Shown here: one piece after another, positions 50,742 through 57,445 of the stretch
Layout of the letters: each line of letters begins with the position of its first letter
How positions within the stretch are numbered: position 1 is the first letter of the stretch
From: an uncultured Elusimicrobia bacterium
Lineage (GTDB): Bacteria; Elusimicrobiota; Elusimicrobia; 2-01-FULL-59-12
NCBI GenBank assembly: GCA_963702895.1
Contig: OY969767.1
Location: 2,464,001-2,528,000, forward strand
Length of the DNA: 64,000 bases
Direction: 5' to 3'
The notes under the pieces: generated by a model
The model's database searches: none
The model's input: only the letters and a program-made list of their open reading frames with translations
What the model was told of the DNA's origin: nothing
Program-made: the position numbers and the translations under genes

Positions 50742-51137
50742 TCACGCCGGGCGCCCCCGTGCTTTGTCATTGAGCGAGCGGAGGTGCTCGTGGAAAGCTT
50801 CATCGGATTGTTTCTTAGCTTCCTCATATTGGATCAGCCGCCGCAGCACCGCGCGGCGCTGGCGGGTGGTCATTCGTTTCTCCGCGCGGGAAAGACTCCC
50901 ATAGAGCCAAAGAAAAGGGTCCCGATAGCTCTCACGCCCTTGCCGTATCATCGCCAACCCATGGTCCGGACGGTCGTCCCCCGCCATGGCGTCTGAAACA
51001 TGGTGACAAAAGAGCGCCAGGGTAGAGAGGAAGGCTTTCGGCACTCGAATGCGCACGGAATCCCGTGATACCTTTAGGGCAACTCTGCTGAAGCGGTCGT
51101 TCGCTCTGCGAAAGGCTTGCCGTGTACGCGTCTTCAT
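50742..51137 (-). CDS. Hypothetical protein
   Basis: Start overlaps the Fic stop (ATGA). Confidence 0.5.
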   Translation of the reverse strand: MKTRTRQAFRRANDRFSRVALKVSRDSVRIRVPKAFLSTLALFCHHVSDAMAGDDRPDHGLAMIRQGRESYRDPFLWLYGSLSRAEKRMTTRQRRAVLRRLIQYEEAKKQSDEAFHEHLRSLNDKARGRPA

Positions 51138-52318
51138 GCCGGGCGCTCTGTCCCTTCGTTGAGGATTTTTAGATAGGGCTCATAGGCAAAGACGCGGTAG
51201 GTCTGCTTGCCGGTCAGTTCGCGCACGAGCCCAAGTTTCTCCAAATTGGCCATCGCTTTGTTGATGGCCGGATAGGACATCTTAAGCTCGCGCTGCGCCA
51301 CGACAGGCGCCACCAGGACCCGGCGCTGGAGTAGAGTATGGACGCGCTCGGCGGACAAACCGACCCGGCCTAAGGTTCGAATCTTGGTTTGATGCTCCTG
51401 AAACATCGCTGCGAGTCTTCGAGCGGTCTCGCTCGCTTGGTTTCCCACTTCTTCGATGCCCTTCAAGTAAAAAGCCAGCCATGCTTCCCAGCCGCCCTCG
51501 GTGCGAATTCCTTGCAGTGCGTCGTAGTATTCGGTCCGATGCGCCTTGAAGTAGAGACTCAGATAGAGCAACGGCGTGGATATGACGCCATCGGCCAGGA
51601 GGATCAAGGTGATCAACAAACGCCCCAAGCGCCCATTGCCGTCCAGGAATGGATGGATCGTCTCGAACTGCGGATGGGCCAGACCGGCCTTGATCACAGG
51701 TGAGGTCCTCACCGGATCGTCATGCAGAAATTTCTCCAGAGCAGACATCGCTGGGATCACTTCATGGGGAGGCGGCGGGACATAGCGGGCGTTGCCGGGC
51801 CGTGAGCCGCCAATCCAATTTTGAGAGCGGCGAAATTCGCCGGGTTCTTTATCGCTCCCTCGACCGCCCTTGAGCAGCACGTTGTGCATCTCGCGGAGAA
51901 GCCTCAAACTTAATGGGAACCCTTCCTGGATTCGCCGGATGCCGTACAGAAGAGCCGCCACGTAATTGGAGACTTCCTGAACGTCATTCACGGGCACGCC
52001 AGGGGCCGCTTCGTTTTCGAACAGCAGCAGCTCGGAGAGCGAAGATTGCGTCCCTTCTATCTGCGAAGAGAGGACCGCTTCTTTGCGGATATAGGAATAG
52101 AGGAAAAGATTGGGGTCAGGCAGGAGCGCCGTGACTCCGTCCAAGCGGCCAAGCGCCCGATTGGCCCGTTCGAGAAGATCCTGAAGCTCAGCGTCAAAAA
52201 TAATCGGGGGATGGGGCGGCAGGGGTGCGGGGATGAATACGCGATAGGATTCCTCCGGCATTGAAACCAGCTGCCAGTGGCCCGCCCGAAGATTTTCCGT
52301 CTTCTCTAATTCACTCAT
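51134..52318 (-). CDS. Fic-family protein
   Basis: HPFLDGNGRLGR catalytic motif; N-terminal SSQIEG inhibitory motif; C-terminal wHTH-like region. Confidence 0.93.
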   Translation of the reverse strand: MSELEKTENLRAGHWQLVSMPEESYRVFIPAPLPPHPPIIFDAELQDLLERANRALGRLDGVTALLPDPNLFLYSYIRKEAVLSSQIEGTQSSLSELLLFENEAAPGVPVNDVQEVSNYVAALLYGIRRIQEGFPLSLRLLREMHNVLLKGGRGSDKEPGEFRRSQNWIGGSRPGNARYVPPPPHEVIPAMSALEKFLHDDPVRTSPVIKAGLAHPQFETIHPFLDGNGRLGRLLITLILLADGVISTPLLYLSLYFKAHRTEYYDALQGIRTEGGWEAWLAFYLKGIEEVGNQASETARRLAAMFQEHQTKIRTLGRVGLSAERVHTLLQRRVLVAPVVAQRELKMSYPAINKAMANLEKLGLVRELTGKQTYRVFAYEPYLKILNEGTERPA

Positions 52319-52327
52319 ATATTTCTC

Positions 52328-52355
52328 ATTAAGCGATACGGCTGTACCGCTTAAT
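52328..52355. promoter_or_regulatory. Inverted repeat upstream of Fic (possible operator)
   Basis: attaagcg-atacggctgtac-cgcttaat in an AT-rich region. Confidence 0.45.
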
Positions 52356-52573
52356 TATACATGAACTTATGAAATTCAGCTTAACTAAACATAATCGTAT
52401 CTATAAATAGAATTGGTTATCTATTCGTTAATTCTAGATTGACTCGAATCAACACCTCCGACCGCCTTCCTTCTTCAAATTTTCTAGGAACGAGGTATGA
52501 CGTGCCAGGGCTTGAAAGCCCTGAAGCATGCAGAAGATGTATGGTTGCCTGCCGATCAATCAGGAAATCAAAA

Positions 52574-52768
52574 TGGAGGGAGAGGTCCGCCGCACTCCCG
52601 GCGGATCCGCCGGACGTCTGGCGGAGATTCGTCCGCCACTGAGTCGCTGGCGGACCCGCCTACGTCTTAGTGGCGGGGAACCTTCGGTACGCCCTCCACT
52701 CACCTGGCGGGCGTCCGCCTGTAGTGTGGCGGACGGTTTCCCGCACAATGCTTTTCAAGAGCATCGCC
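52574..52768 (-). pseudogene. tRNA-Ser(TGA) 3' fragment interrupted by six hairpin units at three sites
   Basis: Removing the inserts gives ATGCT-CTTGAAA-AGCAT-TGTGCGGGAAACCGTAC-C-GAAGG-TTCGAAT-CCCTC-TCCCTCC-A. Confidence 0.85.
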
Positions 52769-52793
52769 TCGTGGCGCTTGTGTAGGTCGTGAG

Positions 52794-52852
52794 CGGAGGG
52801 AGAGGGATTCGAACCCCCGGTACAGTTTCCTGTACACCTGTTTTCAAGACAG
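52794..52852 (-). tRNA. tRNA-Ser(TGA) 3' portion only (att site of adjacent element)
   Basis: CTGT-CTTGAAA-ACAGG, long variable arm, GGGGG-TTCGAAT-CCCTC, TCCCTCCG; D-arm and 5' acceptor strand absent. Confidence 0.85.
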
Positions 52853-52957
52853 CTCACCCTCTGTTTCGACGGTTGCTTGATTCAGTTTGATTTATGGAAG
52901 AGAAACGCTGATTGGATTCGTCCCATTTCCATCTCCATTTACAGCCCGATTTACAAC

Positions 52958-54013
52958 TTATGCGATTACGGGTGGCTTTGGCAAGGTCAAAACCCCTTCG
53001 ATGTTGTGAATTTCATCGGTCAGGTCCTTCCTATCCAAGTGCCCGTAATGTTGCTCCGTGACGACCGAAGTGGAATGCCCCAATATCTTTGAAACCTTAT
53101 ATATCGGGGTACCCCCGCTCAGCATCCGTTGCGCGAATGTGTGACGCAGACAATGGAAAGTGAAATCCATCACTTGCGCATCCTTACAACAGTCCTTAAA
53201 CCATTCGCTAACTGTAGTGCAGTGAACGGCATCCAGCAAACGCGTCTCTGGATCTCGGCCAATGGCACGCTGAGACACGACTTCCGCCACTTCTCGCGTG
53301 AGTGGCACATGACGACTGCGCTGAGTCTTCGAATTCGGAACGAAGATGTAGGGCTCCGGGTAAGGGATGAAATCTCTGACCCTTGTCGCCCATATTTCCC
53401 CGATCCGCATTCCGGTATGAATCGCGATGACGTAGTAAGGCCAGAGCCGTGTATGCTTTGCCACGATCGGCGTTAGCCTTTTTTCCTCATCAGGTGATAG
53501 ATACCGGACTCGCGCTTTCGGAACTTTGGCCATCGGGACACCCCAAGCGGGATTGTCTCCGAAATACATCCGGCGTTTCTTGACCCAATTGATAATCGCC
53601 TTTAATCCGGCGTGATACCGGTTCACGCTGTTCAGCGAAATGTGGGGGCTCGAAATGCCGGGGATTGTCTTTTCGACAAACCTACGGAAACCCTCCACAT
53701 CTTTTGGGCCTATGTCTCGTATGCGCCGATTGCCGAAGTAACGCTTTATCCCCTTGATGTATGCCCTATCTCCCTTCCAAGTCCTCTTAAAGGGCCGGGC
53801 GTATTCATCAAAGAACTCGTCACAGGCATCACTCAACTTCAAGTTATCGTTGCCCAATTGGCCTGTCGCCATGCGCTTGAGCATTTCTGACTTCTTGTGT
53901 GTCTCCGCTTTTGCGGCATTACCGCGCGTCTTGTAGCCTTGCTTCCATTTCGTCTGTTTGCCGACTTGGAAGCGGTAACACCATTCTCCGCTTGGCAGTT
54001 GTCTGACCGACAT
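52958..54013 (-). CDS. Tyrosine recombinase/integrase
   Basis: TGMRIGE, K, HCLRH, LGH, HY catalytic set. Confidence 0.94.
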   Translation of the reverse strand: MSVRQLPSGEWCYRFQVGKQTKWKQGYKTRGNAAKAETHKKSEMLKRMATGQLGNDNLKLSDACDEFFDEYARPFKRTWKGDRAYIKGIKRYFGNRRIRDIGPKDVEGFRRFVEKTIPGISSPHISLNSVNRYHAGLKAIINWVKKRRMYFGDNPAWGVPMAKVPKARVRYLSPDEEKRLTPIVAKHTRLWPYYVIAIHTGMRIGEIWATRVRDFIPYPEPYIFVPNSKTQRSRHVPLTREVAEVVSQRAIGRDPETRLLDAVHCTTVSEWFKDCCKDAQVMDFTFHCLRHTFAQRMLSGGTPIYKVSKILGHSTSVVTEQHYGHLDRKDLTDEIHNIEGVLTLPKPPVIA

Positions 54014-54297: not shown

Positions 54298-54963
54298 TTA
54301 TTCATCGCTTGGCTCCGAGCCGTGTGTCTCATCCGCAGAATCAGGAGACCGAGCATACTCCGGCCCTTTTCTTCTGGCCTGTAACCGTTCCAGTTCATGG
54401 ATGCACCTGAGGAGCTTCCGTTCGATGCTCGTTTCATACTGGGATAGCAGTTGAAGGCTCTCCTGCACTGTCTGGAATGAAAGACCGGGCACAACATCTG
54501 CTCCCCCAGTCATTCGGCTGAGGCGGTCGATCTGTTTCTGAGCACGCGCCTTTCCCTCTGGGTCAAGAATCTGCTCGAATGGCTCACATAATTTATCCTC
54601 CATGGGGTTCACTATTGCGACATATCGCTTCGCTTTTTCCCGTGCCTCTACCAGCCATTGCGTCAAAAGGCCTCTCATCAAAAGTCCATGTTCCGCATTT
54701 TCTGACCGTCGGAGCCTCCACATCAAACTCGCGACTCTATCAGTCATGAATTGTTCCATGGAACCCTCCGGCTTGTATAAATGATGGACCCCTTCGCTCA
54801 GTTGTTCACATTCTTGGGGATCTTCGTTCGGCAGGACTGCACGTTCCGATGTAAGGCCGTGCTTCAAGGCATTCCTCGCGATAATTGCTTTGCCCGCCAG
54901 ACTTTTTACACCTCCTGCTTTCGCATTGATCCGATTGGCTTGATTTTGCTTTTCAGTGGCCAT
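54298..54963 (-). CDS. Hypothetical protein (ANRxNA / NALKHGL type)
   Basis: MATEKQNQANRINA, NALKHGL, WRLRR, YETSIER motifs. Confidence 0.72.
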   Translation of the reverse strand: MATEKQNQANRINAKAGGVKSLAGKAIIARNALKHGLTSERAVLPNEDPQECEQLSEGVHHLYKPEGSMEQFMTDRVASLMWRLRRSENAEHGLLMRGLLTQWLVEAREKAKRYVAIVNPMEDKLCEPFEQILDPEGKARAQKQIDRLSRMTGGADVVPGLSFQTVQESLQLLSQYETSIERKLLRCIHELERLQARRKGPEYARSPDSADETHGSEPSDE

Positions 54964-57445
54964 ACTGACCCCCCCTTTGGACTTCAAATAGTGAAGGCTG
55001 TGAACTTGGTGAACCATTTTCGACGTGCTCAGGATTAGGGATGTCCGTTTCTCGGGGTCCATTAAGTACAACATCGGGCTGGCCGAGGTTCACAGGGTTC
55101 ACAGGTTCACTGAGTGAAATGAGTTTCCACTGCTTTGCCCGTTGCTTTGATCCGGCCAGTAGCACACGGAATTCATCGAATTGCCGGTCACGGAGTTTCA
55201 TGAGTTCTTGACCCATCTTGGTTCGACGGCTTTTCTCCTGACCCAGTCCAAGGTTTATGGGTTCTTCCAACTTCTCGTTCAGATCAAAGAGTTCCGCCAC
55301 CCCTACCTCAGCGTCGCCATGGACTTCCCACCACCTCTGTATAAATCCCCGTAAGATGTTGCCTTCCTCATCAGATGCGCCGTAGAAGTCGTTGAGATTG
55401 CCAAGGAATCCGGGCACACCGGCAACCGATAGGACTCCACCCATGGTCTTTGACCAAGATTCGAACATTCCCAGACTTACACCCTTGAAAGGAGGCCTTC
55501 CTTGAGCGATCCACCCCTGAATGATGGTCAGAGCGGCCCAGATAATCTGCGGACGCTTTTCTCTTGCCCAGCACATAAGGTCTGGATGTCGAAATCTGTC
55601 GCGCAACCATGGGCGGTCAGCTTTGGCATCCATTCTTATTCTGATCGAGCGGCGGGACATTTCGTTGGATAAAGCTGGATTATTTCCATTGGCAACCCAA
55701 GCGCATCTCACTGGCAAGGAGATGACTTTTGAGAACCCTAGAATCCGATCCTCCCAACAAGGCGAAGTGATGGCTGACGCGAGTGCGGACGAGTCCAGCC
55801 GTCTTCTGATGTTGTCGATGAGCAGGATGTCGGGTCTTTCCATGAGTTTTGACGTGAGTCTTTTTCGCCATTCGTCAGAATCCCTCCCCTCACTCATAGT
55901 CGATACGGGCCGACCCAGAGAAGCAAACGCCACAGCGTTGATCAGAAGCGTTTTCCCAGTTCCGGGCGATGGGGCTTCTACGAGGTGAAGCGGTGTCGCT
56001 CCATTAATCAGATCCCTCGCAAATGGAAGCAACAAAAGCGCAAACGCATGGGCACGCTCCGCCTCTCCTGTAAACGGGAACTCCCCGATCAGTTCATCTA
56101 GGATCAGGCCGCGAGCTCCTTGCAGTTCGTCATGGCTCGGTACTGCGGCGACCTCAGGAATCTCTCTGGGATCAGAATGAAAAAGGTATGTCTGGCTTGC
56201 TGGGTGGTAGCCAGATGATGTTTGCAATAGCCCTTCCGGAGAAAATACCGGAGCTTCCACGATGCGGGTCAATATTGGCAGGGGTAATTCGGGAGATGCC
56301 AGCATGTCTTTGACAACATGCATCGGAGGTAGCACGGGATAGACTTCTCCTTGGTAAACGCGATACCAATCCGCAGAGCGAGCCAAAACATGCCGCATCT
56401 TGTCCTGAACCAATTCCCTCAAACGCGGGTATCCCTTATCGTCTTTTTCGATTCGAACCGGCAGACCTCCTGAGCGGAACAGTGTGGGGGGCCGATTGAA
56501 TTGCTCAACCGCTTCCCATGCCAAAGGCGTAATTCTCTTGAGTTCAAAGTCTCCTGCATCGATGTGCGGAAGTGAATCAGCGCTCTTGCCGATCTCATGA
56601 GAGACTATAGGCAACATTAAGGCCTCTGCTGAATCTCGCGCCGCAGAAAAGCGGCTTGAGAACTCATTGGGATATTTAAGATGCAGGTCGCTGAGGTCCT
56701 TGGCATCACTCAGCTTGATTAGTTTGAGGATTCCATGCCATTCAAGGTTCTGCACACGGGAGGAAATCCCATCGGCAAATACCTCGCCGCCTCTATCGGG
56801 CTCTTGGATCACACAGAGTTCCTCGAACGCCCGGATATGTTCAGCGTTAAGCTTTTTGGCCATATCGGCACCCGGAAGTCCCAGCACGGGCAATTGATGA
56901 AACCAACCCGTTAAGACATCGGTCTCGCCTTCTACGAGCACCAGATACTTCTCAGATGCAAATTCTTGCAACCTCCACAGCCCGTATGGAACCGATGACC
57001 CTGACCCACTCGACCACCTACTCCCTTCCTTGGCAACTAAGGAAGTCCGAATCCTCTGGCGGGAGGCTTTACTGCCGTCCATCAATCGATAGGTTATTCT
57101 TGCGCCCTTGAATGGAATATCCTCCACGCCGTGTTGTCTAAGAAACTGCGAAGGCAGGTGCTTGTGCTGGGCAATCGCCTCTACAGTTACCAGCACCCGG
57201 TGCTTCGGTTCTGTGGTAGGGACTTGGGCAAAGAGCGTTTCTAACGGAAGTCTTAACGCTTTGCGAATGTTCTCAAAGGGGCACCCCGCAAAGCATTTGA
57301 AAAGGATTTTCCCATCGTTCCCAATCCCGACTGATAGGCTCTGTTGTCGGTCCTCGTGCGACGGACAAAGTGCAGTCCACTGGGATTCTCCGTTCTTTTT
57401 GACACCTTTGAGGCGAGACAACACAAGTTCGACACTCATTGCCAT
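54953..57445 (-). CDS. Primase-like replication protein (Zn-binding + Toprim + P-loop ATPase)
   Basis: CPSHED..CFAGC, VEGETD, EPDRGG, GTGKT Walker A, LLIDN. Confidence 0.85.
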   Translation of the reverse strand: MAMSVELVLSRLKGVKKNGESQWTALCPSHEDRQQSLSVGIGNDGKILFKCFAGCPFENIRKALRLPLETLFAQVPTTEPKHRVLVTVEAIAQHKHLPSQFLRQHGVEDIPFKGARITYRLMDGSKASRQRIRTSLVAKEGSRWSSGSGSSVPYGLWRLQEFASEKYLVLVEGETDVLTGWFHQLPVLGLPGADMAKKLNAEHIRAFEELCVIQEPDRGGEVFADGISSRVQNLEWHGILKLIKLSDAKDLSDLHLKYPNEFSSRFSAARDSAEALMLPIVSHEIGKSADSLPHIDAGDFELKRITPLAWEAVEQFNRPPTLFRSGGLPVRIEKDDKGYPRLRELVQDKMRHVLARSADWYRVYQGEVYPVLPPMHVVKDMLASPELPLPILTRIVEAPVFSPEGLLQTSSGYHPASQTYLFHSDPREIPEVAAVPSHDELQGARGLILDELIGEFPFTGEAERAHAFALLLLPFARDLINGATPLHLVEAPSPGTGKTLLINAVAFASLGRPVSTMSEGRDSDEWRKRLTSKLMERPDILLIDNIRRRLDSSALASAITSPCWEDRILGFSKVISLPVRCAWVANGNNPALSNEMSRRSIRIRMDAKADRPWLRDRFRHPDLMCWAREKRPQIIWAALTIIQGWIAQGRPPFKGVSLGMFESWSKTMGGVLSVAGVPGFLGNLNDFYGASDEEGNILRGFIQRWWEVHGDAEVGVAELFDLNEKLEEPINLGLGQEKSRRTKMGQELMKLRDRQFDEFRVLLAGSKQRAKQWKLISLSEPVNPVNLGQPDVVLNGPRETDIPNPEHVENGSPSSQPSLFEVQRGGQYGH

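What the first reader, a model, noticed from the sequence alone, without database searches (positions are those of the whole stretch)
52574..52768. Dead tRNA-Ser att copy studded with three tandem pairs of fixed-geometry micro-hairpins
Seen in sequence: deleting 52586-52625, 52631-52677 and 52691-52734 leaves a sequence colinear, without gaps, with the neighbouring tRNA-Ser(TGA) 3' fragment at 52794-52852. Each insert is exactly two hairpin units with 6-bp (t/c)CCGCC..GGCGG(a/g)-type stems and unrelated loops. Four units are 20 nt (8-nt loop) and two are 23 nt (11-nt loop). The third pair reads CG-unit-CG-unit-CG, like repeated duplication of a 2-bp target. Inference: an insertion machinery repeatedly writes short variable-loop hairpins into structured DNA. 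It may scar att sites, or the inserts may simply survive only in non-functional tRNA copies.
Basis: partly seen in the sequence, partly recalled or inferred. Interest (0 to 1): 0.88.

Follow-up and report, generated by a model that had tools for sequence, protein, structure and literature searches.

The report
Mobile hairpin pairs plugging a dead tRNA
A discarded piece of a serine tRNA gene has been hit three separate times by a tiny two-hairpin DNA repeat that, across this bacterial lineage, lands in the loop-coding spots of dead tRNA copies and spares working tRNA genes, moved by an enzyme that is still unknown.

Summary
Removing 52586-52625, 52631-52677 and 52691-52734 leaves 64 nt colinear with the tRNA-Ser(TGA) 3' part. 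Joining that sequence to a 5' stub 17.8 kb away, at a shared 16-nt direct repeat, gives a sequence ARAGORN calls tRNA-Ser(tga); without the excisions it calls nothing.

The inserts are not novel "written" hairpins with unrelated loops. They are three copies of a dispersed family of inverted hairpin doublets, YCCGCC-N8-11-GGCGGR, with conserved loop motifs. The family is 14-fold enriched beside tRNA genes and absent from all 48 working ones. Inside tRNA remnants it sits mostly in the D-, anticodon- and T-loops.

A homologous dead tRNA-Ser in a same-genus genome has two of the three sites empty. It carries a different element in the T-loop and an extra doublet in the anticodon loop. The insertions were therefore independent.

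The family resembles REP/REPIN elements but fails two defining tests. Its GTAG-like motif lies inside the loop. The lineage's RAYT genes are flanked by a different palindrome, and this genome has only a RAYT stub. The mobilising enzyme is unknown.

The scan has met such "tRNA-remnant plugs" before, in this genome and in others.

The parts
52574..52585 (-). Dead tRNA-Ser(TGA): 3' strand of the acceptor stem, seen as antisense on the + strand
   Evidence: Colinear with the tRNA-Ser 3' end. Forms the acceptor stem in the ARAGORN cloverleaf of the rejoined gene.
52586..52625 (.). Insert 1: 40-nt doublet of two 20-nt hairpins (TCCGCC-N8-GGCGGA twice, N8 type). It lies in the 3' strand of the T stem, with no target duplication.
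   Evidence: As DNA it folds into two hairpins, -15.3 kcal/mol, z -3.3. The site is empty in the G002 homologue.
52626..52631 (-). Dead tRNA-Ser: 3' half of the T-loop and first T-stem base (GATTCG); one G is extra
52632..52677 (.). Insert 2: 46-nt doublet of two 23-nt hairpins with N11 loops (first loop ACTGAGTCGCT, second TACGTCTTAGT). It sits in the T-loop directly after GGTTC on the tRNA sense strand.
   Evidence: Its lowest-energy DNA fold is one long hairpin, -16.3 kcal/mol, z -4.5. Eight genome clusters sit directly after GGTTC or GGTT (7 T-loop, one a D-loop) and two single-unit T-loop clusters after GGTTCA. A same-genus genome carries an identical first unit at an unrelated locus.
52678..52690 (-). 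Dead tRNA-Ser: 5' strand of the T stem and 3' strand of the variable arm
52691..52734 (.). Insert 3: 44 nt reading CG-unit-CG-unit-CG with the flanking CG. Two N8 hairpins whose stems extend to 8 bp; the first has one mismatch. It sits near the tip of the variable arm and shows an apparent 2-bp CG duplication.
   Evidence: The G002 homologue has a single CG and no insert at this point.
52735..52768 (-). Dead tRNA-Ser: 5' strand of the variable arm and the anticodon arm (anticodon TGA)
52753..52768 (.). 16-nt direct repeat TTTCAAGAGCATCGCC. Its second copy starts the 5' stub of the same ancestral gene at G000 2534556-2534571, outside the window at the equivalent of 70556-70571.
   Evidence: Longest common string, and rejoining at it gives an ARAGORN tRNA-Ser(tga). 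BLAST hit.
52769..52793 (.). 25-nt spacer between the two tRNA-Ser fragments
52794..52852 (-). Younger tRNA-Ser(TGA) 3' fragment without inserts. It is the displaced end of the 15.5-kb island whose other end is the intact tRNA-Ser gene at G000 2532323-2532412.
   Evidence: 26 of 27 nt match the real gene's 3' part. tRNA-like by Rfam, 30.2 bits to a tRNA-clan model, below the gathering score.
52958..54013 (-). Tyrosine integrase of the island
   Evidence: PF00589 at 2.5e-21.
54953..57445 (-). 830-aa island protein with a weak match to the primase-type CHC2 zinc finger
   Evidence: PF01807, 20.1 bits, below the cut-off of 24.9.
51134..52318 (-). Fic/DOC-domain gene beyond the dead copy. Close homologues in two related genera lie on contigs that also hold tRNA-Ser fragments.
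   Evidence: PF13784 and PF02661.

Best explanation
The 195-nt stretch is the displaced 3' two-thirds of an older tRNA-Ser(TGA) gene. That gene was split in its anticodon arm when foreign DNA entered. The foreign DNA now spans 17.8 kb and holds the working tRNA-Ser gene, a later integrase island and other dead tRNA-Ser copies.

Once the fragment was free of selection, it was hit three separate times by members of a dispersed family of 40-47-nt inverted hairpin doublets. The family occurs in several Elusimicrobiota genera. These doublets behave like very small non-autonomous mobile elements. They are copied from existing family members rather than made afresh.

They enter with either no duplication or a 2-bp duplication of the target. 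They strongly prefer the short single-stranded-prone tips of hairpin-coding DNA: tRNA D-, anticodon- and T-loops, and a riboswitch loop. They persist only where the host tolerates them.

Inferred, not shown: insertion acts on transiently single-stranded, folded DNA and is carried out by an enzyme supplied in trans. That enzyme is not identified, and it is not the RAYT of this lineage.
For: Dead gene:
- The excised sequence is colinear with tRNA-Ser.
- A 16-nt direct repeat links it to a 5' stub, and rejoining gives an ARAGORN tRNA-Ser(tga) cloverleaf.
- An integrase lies inside the interval, and a second repeat, 26 of 27 nt, bounds the inner island.

Family:
- Counts are 3-6 times those of Markov-matched genomes.
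- The sixth stem pair is complementary in 71 of 97 N8, 36 of 46 N10 and 55 of 84 N11 units, against 8 of 25 and 7 of 14 in the reversed-motif control.
- The strict doublet pattern occurs 26 times here and 2-10 times in 5 of 7 family relatives. It occurs in 1 of 53 genomes outside the family, and in the reversed control in 1 of 61 genomes.

Independent insertion:
- The G002 homologue has the insert-1 and insert-3 sites empty, another element in the T-loop and an extra doublet in the anticodon loop.
- Excising the T-loop and anticodon-loop inserts there gives an ARAGORN tRNA-Ser(tga) in 46 of 99 boundary choices.

Targeting:
- 44 of 237 clusters lie within 400 nt of a tRNA gene, a zone that is 1.3% of the genome. 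None lies inside a working tRNA.
- 19 of 237 clusters have flanks that rejoin into tRNA-like sequence above the 99th percentile of 400 random sites.
- Of those 19, 10 are in T-loops, 5 in D-loops and 1 in an anticodon loop.
- One doublet fills a loop that the c-di-GMP riboswitch model expects to be 3 nt.
Against: - No mobilising enzyme is identified. G000 has only an 84-aa Y1 remnant.
- The RAYT genes of relatives are flanked by other palindromes in 4 of 4 loci.
- Only 1 of 6 Y1 transposase loci in relatives has a family unit within 1.5 kb.
- Most copies differ from one another in the variable loop positions, so recent activity is not shown.
- Flanks of clusters form a stem of 5 bp or more in only 23 of 237 cases, against 3.8% of 5000 random sites. 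Hairpin-tip targeting is therefore a tendency and not a rule. Many doublets sit in tandem 7/8-mer arrays or after genes.
- Inserts 1 and 3 are not in canonical cloverleaf loops.
- The G000 and G002 dead copies are homologous but not syntenic, so loss in G002 instead of gain in G000 cannot be excluded.
Confidence: 0.6

Rival explanations
1. Canonical REP/REPIN system. The doublets are the cognate repeats of a RAYT (Y1 HUH) transposase, which cuts and rejoins them as single-stranded hairpins. G000 has recently lost the enzyme.
For: - Short palindromes in inverted doublets carry a GTAG-like motif. Insert 2 folds as one long hairpin.
- Relatives encode proteins above the cut-off of NCBIfam 'REP-associated tyrosine transposase': 94.5 and 83 bits against a cut-off of 80.
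- G000 keeps an HUH-motif remnant.
- One RAYT locus (L017) has a family unit about 230 nt upstream of the gene.
Against: - RAYT genes in 4 of 4 loci examined are bracketed by a different palindrome of GGTRCCWGGYACC type. That palindrome is absent from G000 (0 matches).
- G000 has the most doublets (26) but no intact RAYT. G004 has 2 Y1 genes and 0 strict doublets.
- The GTAG-like motif lies inside the loop. The REPs defined in PMC3733652 carry it as an unpaired terminal tag.
Confidence: 0.12
2. Break-and-plug. Small GIY-YIG-type nucleases that ride with tRNA genes cut tRNA-coding DNA in its loops. Repair of the break copies a doublet from elsewhere into the gap. The plug then protects the discarded tRNA copy from being cut again.
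For: - 6 of 9 small GIY-YIG ORFs in G000 lie within 500 nt of a tRNA gene.
- At tRNA-Asn, each of two GIY-YIG ORFs is followed by a tRNA tail whose T-loop carries a CG-unit-CG-unit-CG doublet.
- The 2-bp duplication seen in 7 of 7 tRNA-embedded 8-bp-stem doublets would fit a 2-nt staggered cut. That GIY-YIG homing enzymes cut this way is recalled, not tested here.
- The anticodon-loop plug site of G002 lies inside the 16-nt repeat at which the G000 gene was split.
- A T5orf172/MUG113-domain ORF follows the working tRNA-Ser gene by 53 nt.
Against: - No GIY-YIG ORF lies near the dead copy. Most plugged stubs have none within 500 nt (comparison of the positions).
- Most clusters (193 of 237) are not near tRNA genes at all.
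- Doublets with 6-bp stems show no duplication in 7 of 7 tRNA-embedded cases.
- The three GIY-YIG ORFs away from tRNAs are not flanked by this family: two are wrapped by a CCCGG-type hairpin, the third has only one unrelated hairpin downstream.
Confidence: 0.18
3. Selected RNA or DNA structure. The hairpin cluster is kept because it does something between the integrase gene and the Fic gene, such as blocking exonucleases, insulating transcription or binding a protein. Its position in a tRNA remnant is incidental.
For: - The region folds much better than shuffles as RNA: -111.7 against -87.5 kcal/mol, z -5.3.
- Stems stay paired through paired changes.
- REPs are proposed to act in this way (PMC3733652, abstract).
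Against: - No terminator-like T tracts.
- The same family fills dead tRNA loops at many unrelated loci, which is a targeting pattern rather than a local function.
- No run listed as RNA holds the stretch, so expression could not be examined.
Confidence: 0.07
4. Artefact or local duplication. The hairpins are an assembly error, or arose in place by slippage without any insertion.
For: GC-rich palindromes can mislead assemblers. No public run holding the stretch could be laid on it.
Against: - The genome is a single 2.72-Mb contig.
- The family recurs in independent assemblies of at least five other genera and in further Elusimicrobiota and Omnitrophota assemblies.
- The loops match a family consensus and not their own flanks.
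Confidence: 0.03

Closest known systems
REP / BIME / REPIN elements with RAYT transposases (Bertels & Rainey 2011, PMC3116915 and PMC3337134: search listing and abstract starts only; Di Nocera et al. 2013, PMC3733652: abstract, the section 'GTAG families' and passages read)
   Same: Short GC-rich palindromes in high copy. They are mostly paired in inverted orientation and can fold separately or as one long hairpin. Stems vary through complementary changes. A GTAG-like motif is present. Dimers combine two loop types, as in the heterodimers described in PMC3733652.
   Different: The GTAG-like motif lies inside the loop and is not an unpaired terminal tag. Loops are 8-11 nt, where most REP loops are 2-5 nt. 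The lineage's RAYT genes are flanked by another palindrome, and this genome lacks an intact RAYT. Insertion into tRNA-remnant loops appears in none of the top-listed papers of two of my literature searches, of which only PMC3733652 was read beyond the listing; in it the term tRNA occurs four times, and the shown passage names only genes of tRNA-handling proteins.
Displaced tRNA-gene fragments at genomic-island ends (Islander database paper, PMC4383910: abstract start in the search listing)
   Same: A tRNA 3' fragment, a direct repeat at the other end of the inserted DNA, and a tyrosine integrase inside. This holds for the insert-free fragment 52794-52852 and, in part, for the dead copy.
   Different: The dead copy's 5' partner is not completed into a working gene. 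The working tRNA-Ser lies as a whole gene inside the inserted DNA. Island literature does not describe hairpin repeats filling the fragment.
Small mobile hairpin elements of mitochondria: double-hairpin elements, GC clusters and repetitive hairpin-forming elements (PMC2800124 and PMC4478555: search listing only; details recalled)
   Same: Tiny GC-rich one- or two-hairpin units that spread within a genome and settle in tolerant parts of RNA genes and spacers, with no known dedicated enzyme.
   Different: Those are organellar and unrelated in sequence. A preference for tRNA loops was not checked in those papers.
Hairpin 'plugs' in tRNA remnants noted earlier by this scan (e1-7796345 in this genome; e1-2317817, e1-7110687, e1-1202897 and e1-1189598 in other genomes)
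   Same: GC-rich hairpin doublets at fixed loop positions in dead tRNA copies beside working tRNA genes. An association with small GIY-YIG ORFs was suggested there and partly reproduced here.
   Different: This site is not beside its tRNA gene. It holds three inserts of two subtypes in one 64-nt remnant, two of them outside the canonical loops. It has a same-genus homologue with empty sites. The earlier notes are unchecked AI notes.

Membership tests
REP/REPIN-RAYT system | Short palindromic repeat present in many copies per genome | tested here: met
   278 perfect CCGCC-N8-11-GGCGG units, against 46-69 in each of five Markov-matched genomes.
REP/REPIN-RAYT system | Two units in inverted orientation that can form one hairpin (REPIN) | tested here: met
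   26 strict doublets. Insert 2 folds as a single long hairpin. Inserts 1 and 3 fold as two hairpins.
REP/REPIN-RAYT system | Unpaired GTAG or CGTC tag at one end of the palindrome (PMC3733652) | tested here: not met
   The ACTAC/GTAGT motif lies inside the loop next to the stem. The outer flanks are target sequence.
REP/REPIN-RAYT system | RAYT gene flanked by the same repeats | tested here: not met
   G000 has only an 84-aa remnant with no units within about 1.5 kb on either side. In relatives, 4 of 4 RAYT loci are flanked by GGTRCCWGGYACC-type palindromes.
Displaced tRNA fragment of an integrated island (att-type) | The fragment repeats part of a tRNA gene and has a direct-repeat partner at the other end of the inserted DNA | tested here: met
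   16-nt exact repeat with the 5' stub at G000 2534556. The inner island has a repeat of 26 of 27 nt.
Displaced tRNA fragment of an integrated island (att-type) | Tyrosine integrase inside the interval | tested here: met
   PF00589 at 52958-54013. Which repeat pair this integrase made is not shown.
Displaced tRNA fragment of an integrated island (att-type) | The island regenerates an intact tRNA at the opposite junction | tested here: inconclusive
   Met for the inner island: the working tRNA-Ser at G000 2532323-2532412. Not met for the 16-nt pair: the 5' stub is followed by non-tRNA sequence.
GIY-YIG nuclease plus tRNA cassette (earlier scan notes) | Small GIY-YIG ORF directly beside the tRNA gene, with a hairpin doublet at the junction to the displaced tRNA piece | tested here: inconclusive
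   Seen at tRNA-Asn, and 6 of 9 small GIY-YIG ORFs are tRNA-linked. At this locus there is only a T5orf172/MUG113-domain ORF beside the working gene, 15 kb from the dead copy.
E. coli-type tRNA-linked tandem repeats (recalled, and named in note e1-2403736) | Tandem array of units, each repeating the tRNA 3' end directly behind the gene | tested here: not met
   There is a single remnant here, 15.5 kb from the gene. Arrays do exist elsewhere in this genome, at tRNA-Gln and tRNA-Val.

The most novel reading that the evidence does not exclude
The doublets are not moved by a transposase. Nucleases that travel with replacement tRNA genes cut resident tRNA DNA in its loop-coding tips. Such nucleases would be small GIY-YIG-type enzymes; integrase-borne islands would be a second route of entry. 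The break is healed either by capturing the invading cassette, which splits the old gene, or by copying a hairpin doublet into the gap. The doublet then makes the discarded copy uncuttable. Plugs in dead tRNAs would thus be the fossil record of a homing-type arms race over tRNA genes, in which a repair-copied hairpin acts as the immunity device.
Probability: 0.18. Interest if true: 0.85.

Novelty: new variant of a known kind. Interest (0 to 1): 0.58.

Why it matters
How REP-like palindromes spread is still an open question, and for many families no enzyme is known. This family gives unusually clean evidence. The conserved tRNA cloverleaf serves as a built-in empty-site reference, so each insertion point can be read to the base. 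The reading shows a preference for loop-coding tips and two insertion signatures: no duplication, or a 2-bp duplication.

The family also shows that a lineage can carry RAYT genes with their own palindromes alongside a second, more abundant hairpin family that does not belong to them. If the link to tRNA-associated GIY-YIG genes holds, it would tie small palindromic repeats to homing-type turnover of tRNA genes.

In practice, these plugs hide dead and possibly live structured RNA genes from standard finders. ARAGORN and Rfam miss or under-score them.

Tried and rejected
- Sequencing runs: the 4 listed runs each hold only 0.04 of the sampled words and none is on record as RNA. Nothing was laid, so neither the assembly nor expression could be checked.
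- Synteny: searches of relatives with 52300-53000 and with 52735-52800 found no syntenic locus, only repeat copies and tRNA-Ser genes. The apparent 91% match in G001 (L003) proved to be a doublet after a gene's stop codon, not an orthologue.
- MAFFT alignment of the plugged copies was unreadable. It was replaced by excision by coordinates in scripts.
- My first excision of the G002 copy gave no ARAGORN call. A scan of 99 boundary pairs gave 46 calls.
- Rfam on the unexcised region gave only a spurious microRNA match for the dead copy.
- Terminator role: no terminator-like site in the hairpins.
- Palindrome-apex targeting as a general rule: only a 2.5- to 6-fold enrichment.
- RAYT as the mover: rejected as the cognate enzyme.
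- Restriction to one family: the strict doublet pattern is nearly confined to family f1 in the class sample. Among the first 80 record titles, 24 are Elusimicrobia/-ota (9 assemblies), 4 are Omnitrophota and 6 come from one unnamed assembly. The rest are mostly single hits in GC-rich taxa. I estimate that about 17 or more such hits are expected by chance.
- Orientation of doublets relative to replication was considered and dropped: too few copies can be oriented.
- Sequence look-up in the scan's earlier notes found nothing.

Full report
**What is in the sequence.** The window holds no intact tRNA (ARAGORN). At 52574-52768 the + strand reads as the antisense of a tRNA-Ser(TGA) 3' part broken by three blocks of GC-rich hairpins. 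Removing 52586-52625 (40 nt), 52631-52677 (47 nt) and 52691-52734 (44 nt) leaves 64 nt. These align without gaps to the neighbouring fragment 52794-52852 (46 of 59 identical). They align even better to the genome's real tRNA-Ser(TGA) gene at G000 2532323-2532412: score 38, against 1.5 +/- 1.25 and a maximum of 7 for 1000 shuffles. The anticodon stem and variable arm differ from the real gene by paired changes that keep the helices. The copy therefore descends from a once-working gene. The fifth unit has one stem mismatch, and the second block carries one extra G.

**The dead copy has a partner.** A BLAST of the excised copy found a 16-nt exact match at G000 2534556. A tRNA-Ser 5' stub begins there, covering the acceptor stem, D arm and anticodon stem-loop. 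The shared string TTTCAAGAGCATCGCC (window 52753-52768) is a direct repeat. Joining stub and excised copy at it gives an 87-nt sequence that ARAGORN folds as tRNA-Ser(tga), with a 7-bp acceptor stem, a long variable arm and one T-stem mismatch. The same join with the inserts left in gives nothing. An older tRNA-Ser gene was therefore split in its anticodon arm by what is now 17.8 kb. That interval holds:
- a HepT/MNT gene pair;
- a further plugged pseudo-tRNA-Ser;
- the working tRNA-Ser gene;
- a 15.5-kb island whose genes include a T5orf172-domain gene beside the tRNA, an SNF2-type helicase, a weakly primase-like protein and a tyrosine integrase at 52958-54013;
- the insert-free fragment 52794-52852, which repeats 26 of 27 nt of the working gene's 3' end.

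"Dead att-type copy" is thus a fair description. The 5' stub, however, is not completed into a gene as in a textbook integration.

**The hairpins belong to a family.** CCGCC-N-GGCGG occurs 97, 51, 46 and 84 times with loops of 8, 9, 10 and 11 nt. Other loop lengths give about 11-47, the reversed motif 12-30, and five third-order Markov genomes 6-24. The sixth stem pair is complementary (T-A or C-G) in 71 of 97, 36 of 46 and 55 of 84 units, against 8 of 25 and 7 of 14 in the reversed-motif control.

The loops are not unrelated. N8 loops begin A[CG]A[CGA] or end [CGT]T[CG]T in 62 of 97 units. N10 and N11 loops begin ACT or end AGT in 34 of 46 and 35 of 84. Across genomes the N10/11 doublets pair a unit with a loop like ACTGAGTCGTT with an inverted unit with a loop like ACTACGGCTTT. 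Each of the three inserts here is such an inverted pair. As DNA, insert 2 folds best as one long hairpin and inserts 1 and 3 as two hairpins.

The strict doublet pattern occurs 26 times in this genome and 2-10 times in 5 of 7 relatives of the same family. It occurs once in 53 genomes of other families of the class, and in the reversed control in 1 of 61 genomes. The first unit type alone is found in many further Elusimicrobiota and some Omnitrophota assemblies.

**Where the family sits.**
- Of 237 clusters of units, 44 lie within 400 nt of one of the 48 tRNA genes, a zone that is 1.3% of the genome. None lies inside a working tRNA. The one overlap is the working tRNA-Ser's own 3' end, which pairs with a downstream GGCGGA.
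- For 19 clusters the two flanks rejoin into tRNA-like sequence above the 99th percentile of 400 random sites.
- Their junctions fall in T-loops (10), D-loops (5), an anticodon loop (1) and the variable-arm/T-stem border (2). The nineteenth is the merged cluster of inserts 1 and 2 here. Eight clusters sit directly after GGTTC or GGTT (7 T-loop, one a D-loop); two single-unit T-loop clusters sit after GGTTCA.
- Doublets with 8-bp stems show a duplicated target dinucleotide (CG, or TG with CA in the centre) in 7 of 7 tRNA-embedded cases. Doublets with 6-bp stems show none in 7 of 7.
- One doublet fills a loop that the c-di-GMP riboswitch model expects to be 3 nt.
- Flanks pair as a stem of 5 bp or more in 23 of 237 clusters, against 3.8% of random sites. 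Hairpin tips are preferred but not required.
- The genome as a whole is littered with tRNA stubs, 5' pieces upstream and 3' pieces downstream of the genes. One search found 68 local matches, a few of which are neighbouring true genes.

**Independent insertion.** A same-genus genome (G002, locus L025) has, upstream of its working tRNA-Ser(tga), a full-length dead copy of the same gene lineage: the same A7:T66 acceptor pair and nearly the same variable arm. In it:
- the insert-1 and insert-3 sites are empty;
- the T-loop holds a different element at the same point;
- the anticodon loop, which is empty in G000, holds an N11 doublet.

Removing its T-loop and anticodon-loop inserts gives an ARAGORN tRNA-Ser(tga) in 46 of 99 boundary choices. 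A further 5' stub there, and a pseudo-copy in G000, carry a doublet at the same anticodon-loop position. In G001 a doublet with an identical first unit sits after a gene's stop codon. These are separate events at the level of single sites.

**What moves them.** The obvious candidate fails. G000 has one weak Y1 match, an 84-aa ORF with the HUH motif but no tyrosine region, and no units nearby. Relatives encode proteins above the cut-off of NCBIfam's "REP-associated tyrosine transposase". In 4 of 4 loci, however, these genes are bracketed by another palindrome (GGTRCCWGGYACC type), which does not occur in G000. Doublet numbers also do not follow Y1 gene numbers.

A lead from earlier notes of this scan proved partly reproducible. 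Of 9 small GIY-YIG ORFs in G000, 6 lie within 500 nt of a tRNA gene. At tRNA-Asn, two such ORFs are each followed by a tRNA tail whose T-loop carries a CG-type doublet. No such ORF lies near the dead tRNA-Ser copy, and most clusters are far from tRNAs. I therefore rank "nuclease break plus copied-in plug" as the boldest reading still open, not the best one.

**Comparison with what is known.** The family works like REP/BIME/REPIN elements: short palindromes, inverted dimers, complementary stem variants and a GTAG-like motif. It fails two defining tests, the terminal unpaired tag and flanking of the RAYT gene by the same repeats (PMC3733652, abstract and section "GTAG families"). The insert-free neighbour fragment is an ordinary island end (PMC4383910, abstract start seen in the listing). 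Mitochondrial double-hairpin and GC-cluster elements are the nearest in anatomy (search listing only; details recalled). Two full-text searches for palindromic repeats in tRNA loops or tRNA fragments showed no such report among their top-listed papers (20 of 1,577 and 15 of 392 matching papers; listings only). A search for tRNA-linked repeats found none of its listed papers holding the phrase.

**Verdict.** It is wrong on de novo "writing", on unrelated loops, on a flanked HUH gene and on att scarring. The scan has described the same kind of plug before, in this genome (e1-7796345) and in other genomes. This site adds three things:
- a triple hit in one 64-nt remnant;
- a recovered 5' partner;
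- a same-genus homologue with empty sites.

The mover remains unknown.

Noticed in passing
G000 205875-206090, 580617-580811, 1652975-1653118, 1700967-1701170, 1813193-1813381, 1813505-1813693 (all outside the window): Six of nine small GIY-YIG ORFs (70-136 aa) lie within 500 nt of tRNA genes: Gln-ttg, between Ile and Ala-tgc, between Arg-tct and Lys-ctt, Ala-ggc, and Asn (two). One of them has an in-frame TGA.
   Followed up: partly
G000 1813150-1814020 (outside the window): tRNA-Asn locus, in order: a full-length dead tRNA-Asn with four hairpin units in the D-loop and two in the T-loop; the working gene; then twice a GIY-YIG ORF followed by a tRNA tail with a T-loop doublet.
   Followed up: partly
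Flanks of most tRNA genes of G000: About 60 tRNA stubs, with 5' pieces upstream and 3' pieces downstream of the working genes. Several genes are bracketed by both halves of an older copy, for example tRNA-Pro(cgg) with pieces 1-38 and 35-73. Tandem tail arrays lie behind tRNA-Gln(ctg) at an 82-nt period and tRNA-Val(gac) at a 120-nt period.
   Followed up: partly
G000 2532306-2532329 (outside the window): The working tRNA-Ser(TGA) ends in TCCGCC-A. This pairs with a GGCGGA 11 nt downstream, so the gene's own 3' end forms a family-like hairpin. The G002 dead copy does the same with an N8 loop.
   Followed up: no
G000 2340178-2340306 (-) and 74089-74134 (outside the window): A c-di-GMP-I-type riboswitch scores below the Rfam gathering score (32.9 bits, E 1e-5) because a 46-nt doublet sits in a hairpin loop. 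A second locus with similar flanks carries another doublet next to a weak c-di-GMP-I match (23.9 bits).
   Followed up: partly
L013, L014, L015, L017 (relatives G002, G008, G004, G005): RAYT-type genes (217-224 aa where read) are each bracketed by their own palindrome, of the form AAATAGTACCWGGTACTATTT or GGTGCCAGGCACC. This genome has no such palindrome and only an 84-aa RAYT remnant at G000 390719-390889.
   Followed up: partly
G000 503495, 717545, 728973, 890085, 1102486, 1852572, 1889895, 2213746, 2223976 (outside the window): Doublets embedded in arrays of tandem 7- or 8-nt repeats. Three of them have near-identical loops although the surrounding repeat units differ.
   Followed up: no
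G000 2533740-2534433 (L030 5740-6433, -): A HepT-like RNase and MNT nucleotidyltransferase pair (a toxin-antitoxin type module) lies between the working tRNA-Ser and the 5' stub of the old gene.
   Followed up: no
L010 2730-2885 (relative G008): A near-complete tRNA-Ser(TGA) copy whose D-loop holds a roughly 65-nt insert built on a different palindrome (CCCTACGCC...GGCGTAGGG). ARAGORN does not call it.
   Followed up: no
window 51134-52318 (-); G006 contig C10 and G008 contig C7: The Fic/DOC gene beside the dead copy has 63-73% identical homologues in two other genera, on contigs that also carry tRNA-Ser fragments. It may belong to a further island family that uses this tRNA.
   Followed up: no
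G000 543295-543325 and 554233-554600 (outside the window): Two GIY-YIG ORFs not near any tRNA are wrapped by another hairpin family (ACCCCGG...CCGGGGT type). That family also forms part of a repeat of about 15 copies containing GTCCGCC-ACACGGCAG-GGCGGAC.
   Followed up: no
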